Assembly (NCBI GenBank): GCA_947463435.1
Contig: CANHTS010000003.1
Location: forward strand, 1-41,401
Reading direction: 5' to 3'
DNA from: Flavobacteriales bacterium
Lineage (GTDB): Bacteria > Bacteroidota > Bacteroidia > NS11-12g > UBA955
Length of the DNA stretch: 41,401 bases
The first letter of the stretch is position 1; every line of letters starts with the position of its first letter. Positions 1 through 41,401 of this stretch are shown here, piece by piece. The notes beneath the pieces are model-generated. The model worked only from the letters and a program-made list of their open reading frames with translations. It was not told where the DNA came from and searched no databases. A program made the translations under genes and the position numbers.

Positions 1-1
1 A

Positions 2-217
2 AATGCCCGGAGAAACTTCCATGGCATTTATCACAACATTTCCGAAAAGTATGTGCAGAATTACCTGAGTGAATTCTCGTTCCTCACCAACCACCGGCAC
101 CTTGGATCACAAAAATTTGATGCGCTTTTATCGCTAATCCTAAGCCAGACGTGGTTTGCGTCTTTGGTGCAAGCTTCCGTATACTCGGGAAACGCGTCGA
201 CGGAAACGGGACCGTGA
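2..217 (+). mobile_element. IS1595-family (DDE) transposase, C-terminal fragment cut by window start
   Basis: Manual translation of frame +2 gives NARRNFHGIYHNISEKYVQNYLSEFSFLTNHRHLGSQKFDALLSLILSQTWFASLVQASVYSGNASTETGP*. This matches the IS1595 C-terminal signature (N.KR...GIYH.IS.KYLQ.YL.EF.YR.NRR). It is absent from the ORF track because the start lies outside the window. Confidence 0.85.
161..188 (-). repeat. Putative right terminal inverted repeat of the IS1595-like element
   Basis: The minus strand reads CCGAGTATACGGAAGCTTGCACCAAAGA. It overlaps the 3' end of the transposase, and 23 of its first 24 nt match the start of array unit 3 at 41173. Confidence 0.6.
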
Positions 218-475
218 AGCACGACAATACCATCCCGTTCCCCCATCCCAACCCCCAAATTCAACACTTCCATCTCTCCTTCCTTGTTATCCACTGGCTC
301 CCACATTCCCCGTGATGGCCTGACGCTTGTGATATCCATCCTGCCATTTTCACGCATGCATGTGCCAATAGCAGGGTGATGTCATTTACAACAACATCAT
401 GCTAAAACAGCCTCTTAGCGCTGCCATTATGCTCTTGCACAGGCACCACCCACTTGAAAAGTTAAAATCCTCGCT

Positions 476-8249: not shown

Positions 8250-9452
8250 TCAGTTACCATCTGCGTAGTCCTGCAGGTAGCTGTAGCGTTCCGTTAAAGC
8301 GCCCCGGCGTGTAATGCGCGCACCTTCGAGCATGGCGCTTTGGGGGTGGAAGAGTTCCGGAATCACATCATGTAACAGGTGTTCACCAAACTCACTGCTC
8401 GCGTCGCGGGGCAATTCATTGGGCAAATTGCTGACAGCCATTACGTCGATCGTATCCGGAAGAAAAGGCGCAGTGCGTTGTTGTGTTTGACGGTCCCAAC
8501 CAAAAACCGGATCAGCGATGGTGGTTGCGTCTACAGTAATCGGCACAGAACCATCTACATCACAACTGATATCGGCAATTACACGGATGCGGAAACCCGG
8601 CCAAAGTGTGTCTTCTTTTTCAAAGAGCCGGGGTAAATCGCTCGTCCAGAAAAGACCGTTGATGAGCATATCGCAGGCAGGCAGAAATGAACGGAATGAG
8701 CTTTCGTATTCGCTGTGGTTCGCGTAGAAATGCTGCGAATTCCAGGGTTTACCTTCTCGGTGCTGGTATAACTCGTGGCTGTTGAGATGCACAAAAACAG
8801 GCCGCGTATGGTTGCGCAGCAGGAAATCTTCCGGTGTTACCTCCAGAACATTCAGTTGGCGCAGCAGTTCAAGTGCGCCATTCGCCACACGGCCGCCGCC
8901 GGTAAGAACGATCTTGGCCGGTCCAGGCTGAATCTTATGGCATTCGCGCAGCATCTCGGCATAATCCAGGCATTGCCAGGCGGGCTTGAGTTCATAACTG
9001 CCGGTTTTCCTTCCCCAGGTAAGGAAGCCGTTGTAAGCACCGACGATGCCTGCCCAGCGACCAAACCCGAGCACCCGCAAGCCACTTTCCCATTTGAGGG
9101 TTTCGTAATCGATCAACTCAATGTTCTTCTCCAGGATGACTTGCAGCATCGCCTGGTTATAAGGTTGTTTCTTGATGGTATGCGAGAAGAAGAAATATGT
9201 TTTACCGGTAATCAAATGATCCCTTGGAACTTCCTTGATGCCGAATAGCACATCGCAATCGCTAAGGTCGCTGACCACCGGAATGCCTGCGGCCCGATAT
9301 TCGTCGTCGCTGTAGGTGCGTTCCGAGCTGCTTTCCACAAAAATGCGCACATCCGGGTAGCGCTTCTGCACACTCACACATTGAACGGGGGTCAGGGCTA
9401 CACGGGTATCCGGCGGACTTTTTCTTTCCCGCAACAAACCGAATCGGATCAT
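8250..9452 (-). CDS. AlaDh/PNT-family NAD(P)-dependent oxidoreductase (lysine-ketoglutarate reductase/saccharopine dehydrogenase-like)
   Basis: Motifs RVALTP, GIKEVP, FFSHTIKKQPYN, LIDYE, GFGRWAG, GGGRVANG, ADISCD and NLPNELPRDAS. Confidence 0.9.
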   Translation of the reverse strand: MIRFGLLRERKSPPDTRVALTPVQCVSVQKRYPDVRIFVESSSERTYSDDEYRAAGIPVVSDLSDCDVLFGIKEVPRDHLITGKTYFFFSHTIKKQPYNQAMLQVILEKNIELIDYETLKWESGLRVLGFGRWAGIVGAYNGFLTWGRKTGSYELKPAWQCLDYAEMLRECHKIQPGPAKIVLTGGGRVANGALELLRQLNVLEVTPEDFLLRNHTRPVFVHLNSHELYQHREGKPWNSQHFYANHSEYESSFRSFLPACDMLINGLFWTSDLPRLFEKEDTLWPGFRIRVIADISCDVDGSVPITVDATTIADPVFGWDRQTQQRTAPFLPDTIDVMAVSNLPNELPRDASSEFGEHLLHDVIPELFHPQSAMLEGARITRRGALTERYSYLQDYADGN

Positions 9453-9487
9453 GCTGCGAAGCTATGAAGCGGCTTTTTATTTGCTGC

Positions 9488-9495
9488 TACCTTTG
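9488..9495 (+). promoter_or_regulatory. Bacteroidota -7 promoter element (TACCTTTG) for the SRAP-CapA-GT4 unit
   Basis: TAnnTTTG 14 nt upstream of the ATG at 9510. Confidence 0.65.
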
Positions 9496-9509
9496 CCTTC
9501 GCTTCCGCC

Positions 9510-10226
9510 ATGTGTTACGCGTATGCCACCCATTTCGACCGCAATAAGCTGAAGCAGCGCTACGGGCTGGCCGATGTGCCATTGAGTGGTTACCATTTCT
9601 TCAACAGCGCCTTCAACCGTCCGCTCTTGCCGGTGATAACAGGGTTGCACCCGGCCAGCCTGCATTTGCTGAGCTGGGGACTTGTTCCGCATTGGGCACG
9701 CAACGCAGAGCAGGCCGATGAAATGGCGCGCCGCGGTTTCAACGCCCGCTCAGAAACCGTGGCCGAAAAGCCCATGTTCCGCGATGCTTTTCGAAAGGGA
9801 CGCTGCCTGGTTCCCGCTGCAGGTTTCTACGAATGGCGGACAGAAGGCAGTACCAAGTATCCCTTTTTCATTTATCCTGTTTCCGAAGATGGAATCTGCA
9901 GCCTGGCCGGTATTTGTACCCTGAAGACTGATTCCGAAACCGGCGAAGAACAAGGTTCCTTTTCCATCCTTACCGCTCCGGCCGATGCGTGCATGGCATG
10001 GATTCACAACAGCAAACTGCGCATGCCACTCATCCTGCGCAAGGAAGATGAAGCCGCCTGGCTGGATGGCAACGAAGCCGAAGCCAATGCCCTCATCCAA
10101 CGCGGTGCTTCAGACGCGTATGCAGCTTTTCCGGTCAGCAGGCTGGCTTCCTCAGCCCGCTCCAACCGCGACGTGGCCGAAGTATGCGCGCCATTTACGT
10201 ATCCTGAACTGAACCTTCCCTGGTGA
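9510..10226 (+). CDS. SOS response-associated peptidase (SRAP; YedK/HMCES family abasic-site protecting protein)
   Basis: N-terminal MC, plus WGLVPHW, FNARSET, RCLVPAAGFYEW and IH...RMPLIL. Confidence 0.95.
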   Translation: MCYAYATHFDRNKLKQRYGLADVPLSGYHFFNSAFNRPLLPVITGLHPASLHLLSWGLVPHWARNAEQADEMARRGFNARSETVAEKPMFRDAFRKGRCLVPAAGFYEWRTEGSTKYPFFIYPVSEDGICSLAGICTLKTDSETGEEQGSFSILTAPADACMAWIHNSKLRMPLILRKEDEAAWLDGNEAEANALIQRGASDAYAAFPVSRLASSARSNRDVAEVCAPFTYPELNLPW

Positions 10227-39783: not shown

Positions 39784-40878
39784 TCAGAGTTTTTTGCGGC
39801 GGTTGGTTTCAAAGTCCTCAAAAACCAATTCGCCCAATCCCTGAAGACCGGTGTAGAAAGCTCTGCCGCCGTTCACTTCGGTAAACTCATGGACAAACTG
39901 TTGCAGATATGGGTCGCGCGCAATCATGAAAGTAGTCACCGGAATTTTCAATCTTCGGCACTGTGCCGCCATTTGGAGTGTACGGTTGATGATTTTGCGG
40001 TCGAGCCCGAAACTGTTTTTGTAGTAATTGCCGTTTTCCTTGAGACAGGAAGGTTTCCCGTCGGTAATCATGAATATTTGGCGGTTGGGATTCTTTTTCC
40101 TGCGCAGCAGTTCCATCGCTAATTCGAGGCCTGCGACTGTATTGGTATGGAATGGGCCAACCTGCAGGTAAGGCAGATCTTTTACGCTGATGGGCCATGC
40201 ATCATTGCCGAATGCGATGATATCGAGCGTGTCTTTCGGGTATTTGATGCGGATGAGTTCGGCGAGCGCCATGGCTACCTTTTTAGCCGGTGTAATGCGG
40301 TCTTCGCCATATAGAATCATGCTATGGCTCACATCGATCATCAGCACGGTGCTGGTTTGCGATTTGTGTTCGCGTTCGCGCACCACCAGATCGCGTTCCT
40401 CCAGGCTTTCGAATTCTCTGCCGGCACGGATTTGGGCATTCCGCAGGCTGTCGGTCATGCTGATGTTGTCGAGCCCATCACCAAAACGGTATTCGCGTAA
40501 ATCGGCCGACATTTCGTCGCCCTGACCGGTGAAGGTGGTTTTGTGTTGTCCGGCTTTACCTTTCTTCAGTTTGCCGAAAATTTGTTCCAGCGCGTCGCGG
40601 CGAATTTGTTGTTCTGTTGATGGAGAGATGGCGATGCTCCCATCTTCATTGTCTTTCAGGTAACCTTTTTCGCGCAGCTCTTCGATGAAGTCACCAATAC
40701 CGTAGTTGCCGGGTGTCAGTTCATGGGCTTTGTCGAGTTCCGTGAGCCAGTCGAGCGCTTCTGCGACGTCGCCACTGGTATGGACCAATAGTTCGCGAAA
40801 GATGCGGAAAAGAGAATCGAAATTCGATTCTTCCTTGTTTTCAAAGTATCGACTGAAAATGAAACCGGGTCTGGCCAT
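39784..40878 (-). CDS. vWA domain protein (YehP/Ca-activated chloride channel-like bacterial family)
   Basis: Motifs TVLMIDVSHSMILYGEDRITPAKKVAMAL, GPFHTNT and MITDGKP. Start placed at MARPG. Confidence 0.9.
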   Translation of the reverse strand: MARPGFIFSRYFENKEESNFDSLFRIFRELLVHTSGDVAEALDWLTELDKAHELTPGNYGIGDFIEELREKGYLKDNEDGSIAISPSTEQQIRRDALEQIFGKLKKGKAGQHKTTFTGQGDEMSADLREYRFGDGLDNISMTDSLRNAQIRAGREFESLEERDLVVREREHKSQTSTVLMIDVSHSMILYGEDRITPAKKVAMALAELIRIKYPKDTLDIIAFGNDAWPISVKDLPYLQVGPFHTNTVAGLELAMELLRRKKNPNRQIFMITDGKPSCLKENGNYYKNSFGLDRKIINRTLQMAAQCRRLKIPVTTFMIARDPYLQQFVHEFTEVNGGRAFYTGLQGLGELVFEDFETNRRKKL

Positions 40879-41014
40879 GGATGCGTATAACGGAACATCG
40901 AAGTTCGGTAATAGGTTTGAATGGATTGGCAGTGTAGGGTGCTTCGAGGAAAGAAAGAGGGTGAAGCACTCGTGCTTTGACAGCAATGAAGCACAGGTTG
41001 AACGGTGTTAACAC

Positions 41015-41355
41015 CAGAGCATACGGAAGCTTGCACCAGGGATTGTAATGCCGATGGGACCCGTTGAAAATGAAGGCTTTGACGATTTTGAGTCCGATTA
41101 TGCGGAAGCTTGCACCAGGGATTGTGCTGCCGCTGTAACCGGTTGGAAATAAATGCTTTGGGGATCTTGAGTCCGATTATACGGAAGCTTGCACCAGGGA
41201 TTCTGATGTCGCTGTAACCGGTTGGAAAAGAAGACGTTAAGAATCTTGAGTCCGATTATACGGAAGCATGCACCAGGGATTGTAATGCCGATGGAACCCG
41301 TTGAAAAAGAAGGCGTTAAGGTTTTTATGGCCGACTACACGGAAGCTTGCACCAA
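41015..41355 (+). repeat. Non-coding tandem array of 79-bp units (4 full plus a partial 5th), each starting with an IS1595 terminus-like motif
   Basis: Units start at 41015, 41094, 41173, 41252 and 41331 with an exact 79-bp period and no indels. Consensus head: CCGATTATACGGAAGCTTGCACCAGGGATT. Units 2 and 3 differ at 12 of 79 positions. Confidence 0.95.
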
Positions 41356-41401
41356 GAATCCGTAGGATGGCTGTTTTATGCTCTGGTTGCCCGCGCAGGA
41401 G

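What the first reader, a model, noticed from the sequence alone, without database searches (positions are those of the whole stretch)
41015..41355. Tandem 79-bp array built on copies of an IS1595 terminal sequence found 41 kb away
Seen: five heads recur at an exact 79-bp period. The head CCGATTATACGGAAGCTTGCACCA (unit 3) is 23/24 identical to the reverse complement of 165-188, which overlaps the 3' end of the IS1595-like transposase at the other window end. Similarity to that IS end stops after about 24-28 nt, so the remaining ~50 nt of each unit is something else. A period of 79 is not a multiple of 3 and no ORF spans the array. Inference: this is a head-to-tail array of transposon-end sequences with semi-variable linkers. 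It could be a one-ended MITE amplified in tandem, a decoy array that titrates transposase, or a CRISPR-like or ncRNA array derived from an IS terminus. I do not know of a described system of this form for IS1595.
Basis: partly seen in the sequence, partly recalled or inferred. Interest (0 to 1): 0.85.

Follow-up and report, generated by a model that had tools for sequence, protein, structure and literature searches.

The report
Minisatellite built from an IS end
The 79-bp array is a real, copy-number-variable tandem repeat whose units each begin with the terminal inverted repeat of an IS1595-type mobile element; it is one of at least seven such arrays in this lake bacterium and most likely a by-product of transposon insertion followed by unequal recombination, not a dedicated system.

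Summary
Five heads lie exactly 79 bp apart. The head is the terminal inverted repeat (IR) of a 1.1-kb IS1595-type element, which carries it inverted at both ends.

The fifth head is not a further unit. It is the left IR of a complete ~172-bp MITE-like element.

The array is an insertion. Five same-genus genomes have a ~130-bp empty site. The sister species G006 and two metagenome contigs carry 2 units, the window carries 4, and other lake populations carry about 3.

It is not unique. G000 holds at least 7 loci with IR-headed tandem arrays, with periods of 55 to 143 bp and four head subtypes. All 7 have counterparts in G006, usually with fewer units. Neither IR type searched was found in any other relative scanned (2 of 191 and 2 of 79 genomes).

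I found no RNA structure signal, no Rfam match and no spanning ORF. Heads at array edges evolve like their flanks.

Best reading: a transposon-end-derived minisatellite expanded by slippage or unequal crossover. A transposase-binding role is not excluded.

The parts
2..217 (+). 3' end (last 71 codons plus stop) of an IS1595-like transposase gene, cut by the contig start. The full copy of the same locus is G000:C132.
   Evidence: Reading. The match of C3:2-214 to residues 252-322 is 97%. PF12762 hit at C3:2-91. C3 start and C132 start overlap at 98% over 350 nt.
165..188 (-). Terminal inverted repeat of that IS (the end at the transposase 3' side). It encodes the C-terminal LVQASVYS.
   Evidence: The same 24-mer is inverted at C132:163-186 and 1250-1273.
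39784..40878 (-). VWA-domain protein gene. Its start faces the array.
   Evidence: ORF list. Pfam VWA_2, E 3.1e-9. Orthologues in G001-G006.
41015..41093 (+). Unit 1 (edge unit). The head tip is degenerate, the core is intact, and the tail is of the 'GCCGATGG' type.
   Evidence: Orthologous to unit A of G006.
41094..41172 (+). Unit 2.
   Evidence: Its head and first half match unit B of G006.
41173..41251 (+). Unit 3. Absent from G006.
41252..41330 (+). Unit 4. Roughly one unit's length (41242-41322) is skipped in a variant form held by runs X1 and X2.
   Evidence: (joint 41241->41323).
41331..41401 (+). Left end of a ~172-bp MITE-like element, cut by the contig end. The left IR is 41331-41354.
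   Evidence: The complete element with a right IR is seen in G006 (L002 1683-1854). An inverted IR lies 78-101 nt past 41401 in the X3 contig.

Best explanation
The array is a minisatellite (a variable-number tandem repeat) derived from one end of an IS1595-type non-autonomous element.

Shown. In the ancestor of G000 and G006, IS1595-type DNA entered the short divergent promoter region between a VWA gene and an SRPBCC-like gene.

Inferred. That insertion left two closely spaced heads in direct orientation: one solo end with about 55 nt of its interior, and the left IR of a complete MITE-like element.

Inferred from copy-number differences and mosaic units. Replication slippage or unequal crossover between the direct repeats then duplicated the 'IR + tail' unit. 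Further unequal exchange moved the copy number up and down, giving 2, about 3 and 4 units in different populations.

Shown. The same pattern occurs at 6 or more other loci in this lineage, with other IS1595 head subtypes and unit lengths of 55 to 143 bp. The IS1595-type elements are abundant in this lineage.

My reading is that the array has no dedicated cellular function. Its heads may still bind the transposase-like proteins, and it lengthens and reshapes the promoter region of its two neighbours.
For: (1) The head is an IS end.
(2) Empty site: G001-G005 have about 130 bp between the same two genes and no head-like 11-mer.
(3) The G006 locus reads VWA gene | 2 units | complete MITE-like element with left and right IR | SRPBCC-like gene. 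L027 and L028 show the same. G000:C41 resumes in the downstream gene after a gap of about 470 bp.
(4) Copy-number polymorphism: the 4-unit form is in one X3 contig, a form lacking about one unit is in X1 and X2, and a 2-unit form is in X18.
(5) Units look mosaic. By eye on the alignment, unit 4 has a unit-1-like middle and a unit-B-like end, while units 2 and 3 have a B-like middle and a unit-1-like end.
(6) Recurrence. 7 of 33 TRF arrays with period of 40 or more in G000 are IR-headed, representing 6 loci, and C1 adds a seventh. A relaxed head pattern gives 76 hits against 9 in the reversed-genome control. 16 of the 26 heads found at E<0.01 lie in direct tandem arrays.
(7) All 7 loci have counterparts in G006. 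G000 has more heads at the four fully comparable loci: 5 v 3, 6 v 3, 3 v 2 and 6 v 3.
(8) Locus C in G006 looks like one element nested in another, with two left IRs followed by two right IRs. G000 adds one 97%-identical copy of the 'left IR + 119 nt' unit.
(9) Five heads at array edges and locus C diverge between species like their flanks: 107/120 v 438/500 identical, p=0.76.
(10) No sign of RNA structure, no Rfam family, no ORF.
(11) The genome is generally rich in intergenic minisatellites of other families.
Against: (a) Inside the array the block at unit positions 10-30 (head core plus 'GGGATT') varies at 1 of 21 columns, against 31 of 58 elsewhere (p=5.8e-5, block chosen after looking). 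A purely neutral array should not show this unless exchanges or conversion are concentrated there.
(b) Heads of the IS and of two complete MITE-like elements are 142/144 identical between G000 and G006, while their 100-nt flanks are 510/600 (p=3.5e-7). This suggests constraint or recent exchange of these elements.
(c) No 8-bp target duplication was found at any of 7 IR pairs (best 4-6 of 8 over 49 offset combinations). Ordinary transposition into these sites is therefore inferred, not shown.
(d) Five of the seven arrays show no right IR beyond the last head, so the origin of the first head-tail-head dimer is unexplained there.
(e) Why this happened at 7 or more loci with IS1595 heads is not explained by slippage alone.
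(f) A 208-nt contig from an RNA library covers the array (2-unit form), while that run shows no cover of the adjacent VWA gene start. This is a weak hint of transcription, and DNA carry-over is not excluded.
Confidence: 0.62

Rival explanations
1. The arrays are maintained arrays of binding sites for the IS1595-like proteins. They could act as a sponge that titrates the protein and damps transposition, or as a protein-bound landmark that regulates neighbouring genes.
For: The head core is nearly invariant among 7 distinct units: 1 of 21 variable columns against 31 of 58. Heads of the IS and complete MITE-like elements are 142/144 identical across species against 85% in their flanks. The tip of the IR, where cleavage would normally occur, is the degenerate part in the array heads, while the inner part is kept. 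The genome carries many IS1595-like genes with a highly conserved Zn-ribbon N-terminus.
Against: Array-edge heads drift like their flanks (p=0.76). In the 55-bp array the heads themselves vary at many positions. Copy number differs freely between sister species and between populations. The two IR types searched (H1/H2 and the C46 type) were found only in G000 and G006 among the relatives scanned. No binding was tested.
Confidence: 0.13
2. The arrays were built by the transposition machinery itself. Units were added one at a time, by repeated insertion next to or just inside an existing end (target preference for its own end, or one-ended events), rather than by recombination.
For: Recurrence at 7 or more loci, always starting at an IR. 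G006 locus C looks like a nested double insertion. In Drosophila, double insertion through site preference is the main source of transposon dimers (PMC5932611, abstract and section 17 read).
Against: Nested insertion predicts a matching pile of right IRs, which is seen only at locus C. No target duplications appear at junctions or ends. Units within an array share their tails at 77-97%, as expected from local duplication. The newest units in G000 are near-identical neighbours (97% at C73, 92-100% at C91 and C13).
Confidence: 0.15
3. The array encodes repeated small RNAs or a CRISPR-like or guide-like array derived from the IS end.
For: A contig from an RNA library covers the array but not the adjacent gene start. 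One G-C to A-U double change occurs in a possible stem.
Against: Fold z-scores run from -1.45 to +0.87 for 8 unit strands. Consensus folds are -3.2 and -6.9 kcal/mol with 1 to 2 covarying pairs. No Rfam match was found even at E up to 10, apart from a chance lncRNA hit at 13 bits, and none at gathering score in 5 other arrays. The inter-head segments are homologous to each other, not unique spacers.
Confidence: 0.05
4. The array is an assembly artefact from collapsed dispersed repeats.
For: The window is a whole contig of a fragmented MAG, and it ends inside the repeat.
Against: An independent contig spans the whole array without gaps (X3). The same architecture lies in mid-contig in G006 and in 60-kb and 83-kb metagenome contigs. 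The tails occur nowhere else in G000.
Confidence: 0.02

Closest known systems
Transposon-derived tandem dimers and satellites in eukaryotes (McGurk & Barbash 2018, PMC5932611; abstract and section 17 read)
   Same: Direct tandem copies of transposon sequence arise at insertion sites and then expand and contract in copy number. They are polymorphic between populations.
   Different: There the units are whole or truncated elements in large eukaryotic genomes. Here the units are 55-143 bp, consist of one IR plus a short tail, and sit in a 2.6-Mb bacterial genome. No target duplications are seen at the junctions.
BOX elements of Streptococcus pneumoniae (Croucher et al. 2011, PMC3049150; passages read)
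   Same: A bacterial MITE-like repeat with a module in a tandem array whose number varies between strains and loci. It is intergenic and linked to an IS through its terminal repeats.
   Different: In BOX the repeated module (boxB) lies between the two terminal modules and does not contain the terminal repeat. Here the repeated unit starts with the terminal repeat itself. BOX folds into a stable RNA; these units do not.
REP/BIME clusters with RAYT transposase relatives (recalled; the REPIN paper PMC3116915 was seen only in a search listing)
   Same: Short IS-end-derived sequences are scattered and clustered in intergenic DNA, together with a related transposase-like gene.
   Different: REPs are hairpins related to IS200/IS605-type ends and usually alternate in orientation. 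Here the heads are DDE-type IS1595 IRs, all in direct orientation, with long tails.
IS26 translocatable-unit arrays (recalled; PMC7986276 was seen only in a search listing)
   Same: The formal layout is [repeat + segment] n times plus one terminal repeat.
   Different: In IS26 arrays the repeat is a whole 820-bp IS with its transposase gene and the segment is kilobases of passenger DNA. Here the repeat is a 24-nt IR.
CRISPR arrays
   Same: Regularly spaced direct repeats of about 24-30 nt in non-coding DNA.
   Different: The segments between the repeats are copies of one another, not unique spacers. I did not look for cas genes.

Membership tests
IS1595-family insertion sequence (source of the head) | Transposase with Zn_ribbon_IS1595 and DDE_Tnp_IS1595 domains | tested here: inconclusive
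   Zn ribbon is met (PF12760, 36.7 bits). PF12762 is matched only at profile positions 111-152 of 153 (30.3 bits). NCBIfam transpos_IS1595 scores 72.5 bits against a cut-off of 75. All 15 PF12762 matches in G000 cover only positions 111-153. The homologues P0015 and P0017 match 1-153.
IS1595-family insertion sequence (source of the head) | Terminal inverted repeats bounding the element | tested here: met
   C132:163-186 and 1250-1273 are inverted and 23 of 24 alike. The element is 1111 bp.
IS1595-family insertion sequence (source of the head) | 8-bp target site duplication (as reported for ISApl4, PMC12561309, abstract passage) | tested here: not met
   The best flank match is 4 of 8 for the IS and 4-6 of 8 for six other IR pairs, over 49 offset combinations each.
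MITE (for the 172-bp element that ends the array) | Short, non-coding, bounded by inverted repeats like those of an IS in the same genome | tested here: met
   In G006, L002 1683-1854 has left and right IRs. In G000 the left IR is at 41331-41354, and an inverted IR lies 78-101 nt past the window end in the X3 contig.
MITE (for the 172-bp element that ends the array) | Target duplication, and several dispersed copies with the same interior | tested here: not met
   No duplication was found. The interior occurs only at this locus in G000 and G006. Other IR-bounded elements (C147, C33) have unrelated interiors.
Minisatellite / VNTR | Head-to-tail units of tens of bp, with copy number differing between related genomes | tested here: met
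   Period 79 with 4.2 copies. 2 units in G006, L027 and L028, a form about one unit shorter in X1 and X2, and 4 units in the window and X3.
CRISPR array | Conserved repeats separated by unique spacers | tested here: not met
   The tails are 77-79% identical to one another.
CRISPR array | Adjacent cas genes | not tested
   No cas search was run on the window.
Known structured RNA (Rfam) | Match to a covariance model at gathering score | tested here: not met
   none.
BOX-type modular repeat | The variable-number module lies between two terminal modules and lacks the terminal repeat | tested here: not met
   Every repeated unit begins with the terminal repeat.

The most novel reading that the evidence does not exclude
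The IS1595-like proteins of this lineage are multicopy, yet in this assembly none of their genes matches the first two-thirds of the DDE profile. On this reading they are DNA-binding derivatives rather than ordinary transposases. The IR-headed arrays would then be their maintained binding-site arrays. That would be a bacterial counterpart of a transposase-derived protein bound to boxes in satellite repeats, serving as a sponge, a regulator or a chromosome landmark.
Probability: 0.1. Interest if true: 0.8.

Novelty: new variant of a known kind. Interest (0 to 1): 0.45.

Why it matters
Transposon-derived tandem arrays are well documented in eukaryotes. Three full-text searches found no description of bacterial arrays built from one DDE-type IS end, and none for IS1595.

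Here the process can be seen at several stages in two sister species and in natural lake populations: an empty site, two units, about three, four, and up to ten heads. That makes this lineage a compact natural case for how mobile-element ends seed minisatellites, and for how such arrays remodel promoter regions.

The arrays are also practical strain markers (VNTRs), and they cause contig breaks in metagenome assemblies.

If the conserved head core reflects protein binding, the arrays would bear on transposase titration, which is so far mostly a eukaryotic topic.

Tried and rejected
RNA readings. Rfam at E up to 10 on 40800-41401 gave only a 13-bit chance hit to a mammalian lncRNA model. Rfam at gathering score on five other arrays gave none. 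RNAalifold on six units, both strands, was weak. Single-unit folds were no better than shuffles.

Promoter and terminator scan (sigma-70 type only, not the promoter type expected in this phylum). It gave 2 promoter-like sites on the minus strand in units 1 and 4, against 0.7 expected. I gave this no weight.

Wider occurrence.
- A gapped two-head pattern over genome contigs gave 12 stretches. Only L019 is this locus; it shows the same sequence as G006:C119 over the stretch displayed. Nine are unrelated repeats that happen to contain the 12-mer. L020 and L023 are 17-bp arrays, described under things noticed.
- The 20-mer over metagenome contigs gave 3 stretches. Two (L027, L028) are this locus and L026 is a chance match.
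- Order-wide and family-wide IR pattern scans found only G000 and G006.
- IS1595 homologues in other genera of the order have other ends or are fragments, and I did not pursue them.

'Dead transposase' idea. I first read the missing DDE-core match of the C132 protein as domestication. It is single copy, sits at an orthologous site, and has dN/dS 0.27. I withdrew that reading because the clearly multicopy C46-type gene lacks the same match. An AlphaFold model (pLDDT 74.8, pTM 0.75) found no PDB fold match at E<=0.001; the best was E=0.27. The fold of the middle region therefore stays open.

Target duplications were sought at 7 IR pairs and none were found.

RNA-library run X18. One 208-nt contig covers the array. 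It counts only as a weak hint.

Supplementary files of papers were not consulted.

Full report
WHAT IS THERE

The window is a whole contig (G000:C3) of a fragmented genome: 280 contigs, 2.64 Mb, 84% complete. Tandem Repeats Finder gives a 79-bp period, 4.2 copies and 83% matches with no indels at 41021-41354. The 16-nt head core occurs at 41023, 41102, 41181, 41260 and 41339, exactly 79 bp apart, and once inverted at 165-180. That is six hits against 0.06 expected from shuffles. No ORF spans the array.

THE HEAD IS AN IS1595-TYPE END

In G000:C132 the same 24-mer stands inverted at 163-186 and 1250-1273, bounding a 1111-bp element. Its one gene (322-327 aa) has the IS1595 zinc ribbon and the last 42 positions of the IS1595 DDE profile.

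The start of the window overlaps that locus at 98% over 350 nt. The window therefore begins inside this IS. The 24-mer at 165-188 is its end and lies within the last codons of the gene.

Two short non-coding elements are bounded by the same IR: C147 (269 bp) and C33 (175 bp). In an alignment of 17 ends, likeness between the array units and any IS or MITE end stops after about 24-28 nt.

THE LOCUS IN RELATIVES

Among 41 relatives, only G000 and the same-genus genome G006 match the array. In G006 the locus is assembled through and reads as follows: VWA gene start, two units (79 and 78 bp), then a complete ~172-bp element with left and right IR, then an SRPBCC-like gene.

The window's fifth head is therefore the left IR of that element. 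The contig ends 71 nt into it. A Logan contig of run X3 carries an inverted IR 78-101 nt past the window end. G000:C41 resumes within the downstream gene.

Five other same-genus genomes have the two genes about 130 bp apart with no head-like sequence, which is the empty site.

Two metagenome contigs of 60 and 83 kb carry the two-unit form.

Laid contigs show three forms:
- the four-unit form in one ungapped piece (X3);
- a form lacking about one unit (X1 and X2, from two studies);
- the two-unit form in an RNA-library contig (X18).

The array is real and varies in copy number between species and populations.

IT IS ONE OF A CLASS

A two-mismatch scan of the genus turned up further direct series of a variant head. 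Inspection, TRF on the whole genome and a relaxed head pattern (76 hits against 9 in a reversed-genome control) give at least seven loci in G000:

| Locus | Period (bp) | Heads |
|---|---|---|
| C3 | 79 | 5 |
| C91, overlapping the end of C13 | 111-112 | 6 |
| C73 | 143 | 3 direct heads, then two direct right IRs |
| C42 | 91 | 6 |
| C144 end with C24 end | 55 | not countable (contig break) |
| C170 | about 75, two alternating unit types | 6 or more (contig end) |
| C1 | 112 and 193 | 4-5 |

The C170 head matches the IR of the IS in C53.

Seven of the 33 TRF arrays with a period of 40 or more are of this kind. Sixteen of the 26 heads found at E<0.01 lie in direct tandem arrays.

All seven loci have counterparts with the same flanks in G006. 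G000 has more heads at the four loci that can be fully compared.

Both IR types searched were found only in G000 and G006: 2 of 191 genomes of the order and 2 of 79 genomes of the family at 90% completeness or more.

The genome also carries a multicopy IS1595-type element. Its full copy is at C46, and its IR lies near many contig ends.

HOW THE ARRAYS PROBABLY FORM

In G006, locus C reads left IR, 119 nt, left IR, core, right IR, 117 nt, right IR. That is one element inside another in the same orientation. G000 has one extra copy of 'left IR + 119 nt', 97% identical to its neighbour. Two direct heads a short distance apart are a substrate for slippage or unequal exchange, which yields [head + tail] n times plus a final head. 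This is the layout of all seven arrays.

At the window's locus the units look mosaic (by eye). Unit 4 has a unit-1-like middle and a G006-unit-B-like end. Units 2 and 3 show the reverse. This is what unequal exchange between two founder units would give.

This matches the route from transposon dimers to satellites described in Drosophila (PMC5932611, abstract and section 17).

What remains unexplained is how the first dimer arose at the five loci with no right IR beyond the last head, and why no 8-bp target duplications are seen anywhere. An IS1595-family member is reported to make them (PMC12561309, abstract passage).

TESTS FOR FUNCTION

RNA. Eight unit strands fold no better than shuffles, with z from -1.45 to +0.87. 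Consensus folds are weak, with 1-2 covarying pairs. There is no Rfam match.

Conservation gives a mixed picture:
- Among 7 distinct units of this locus, 32 of 79 columns vary. Only 1 of 21 varies in the block at unit positions 10-30 (p=5.8e-5, block chosen after looking).
- Between G000 and G006, heads of the IS and of two complete MITE-like elements are 142/144 identical, against 510/600 in their flanks (p=3.5e-7).
- Five heads at array edges and at locus C are 107/120 identical, against 438/500 in their flanks (p=0.76).
- The first head of the window's array is the most degenerate, at 20/24 against a flank at 94/100.
- Heads of the 55-bp array vary at many positions.
- The IS itself is a mosaic between the species. 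Its last 82 codons have dS 0.018, against 0.55 in the middle. Recent exchange of IS sequence, rather than selection, may therefore explain part of the head conservation.

I conclude that a retained binding function of the head core is possible but not shown.

THE PROTEINS

The C132 gene is intact at an orthologous site in both species, with dN/dS 0.27. In an alignment of 20 family members there is no invariant column between residues 118 and 251, while both termini are highly conserved.

Only some homologues (P0015, P0017) match the whole DDE profile. All 15 profile matches in G000 cover only the last third, and this includes the multicopy C46 type. A missing profile match therefore cannot be read as inactivity.

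A model of the protein (pLDDT 74.8) found no fold match in the PDB.

VERDICT

The array is best read as a transposon-end-derived minisatellite, one of a lineage-specific class. No function has been demonstrated.

It is a new variant of a known kind of thing, namely transposon-derived tandem repeats and modular MITE-like repeats such as BOX (PMC3049150, passages). Three literature searches found no description of such arrays for IS1595.

The organism label rests only on the record title of L019, which calls it a Bacteroidota MAG. The runs holding the stretch are listed as lake or freshwater metagenomes.

Noticed in passing
G000:C46:8871-9857 (full copy). IR near the ends of C1, C6, C9, C42, C48, C62, C65, C153, C172, C176, C194 and C231, among others.: A multicopy IS1595-type element (328-aa gene) breaks many contigs. 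Like every IS1595-like gene in this assembly, its protein matches only the last ~30 positions of the DDE profile (15 of 15 matches cover positions 111-153 only). A proliferating element without a recognisable catalytic core deserves its own look.
   Followed up: partly
G000:C132:137-388 (window 2-217 is the same gene end): The last 82 codons of the IS1595-like gene show 1 synonymous and 0 non-synonymous differences between G000 and G006 (dS 0.018), against dS 0.55 in the middle of the gene. This points either to recent exchange of IS sequence between the species or to a constraint at the DNA level next to the IR.
   Followed up: partly
L020 115-194 and L023 2546-2625 (genome G191): Another Bacteroidetes MAG carries 17-bp tandem arrays whose unit equals the IR core plus 5 nt. 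They occur at 35 or more loci (71 pattern hits against 1 in the control), often just before terminator-like hairpins. No homologue of the IS1595-like protein was found there with this query.
   Followed up: partly
G000:C20:1-465, C48:6458-7282 and 9291-9618, C59:6501-6923, C108:7929-8266, C174:587-1037: A second family of intergenic tandem arrays (period 155-184 bp) is built on a 'CACGCAAAGACCGCAAAG'-like motif. The same motif also sits inside the units of the IR-headed array in C1.
   Followed up: no
G000:C20:516-756, C51:565-718, C191:3675-3884, C205:32-158, C275:2158-2445: A third family of arrays (period 52-98 bp) is built on a GC-rich hairpin of the 'GACCCGG...CCGGGTC' type, resembling REP-like repeats.
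   Followed up: no
window 1-360 and G000:C132:1-350: Two contigs of the assembly overlap at 98% identity. These are probably strain variants of one locus, so C132 is likely the neighbour of the window's left end.
   Followed up: partly
window 41049-41401 (run X18): A 208-nt contig from a metatranscriptome library covers the two-unit form of the array, while that run shows no cover of the adjacent VWA gene start. This is a weak hint that the region is transcribed.
   Followed up: no
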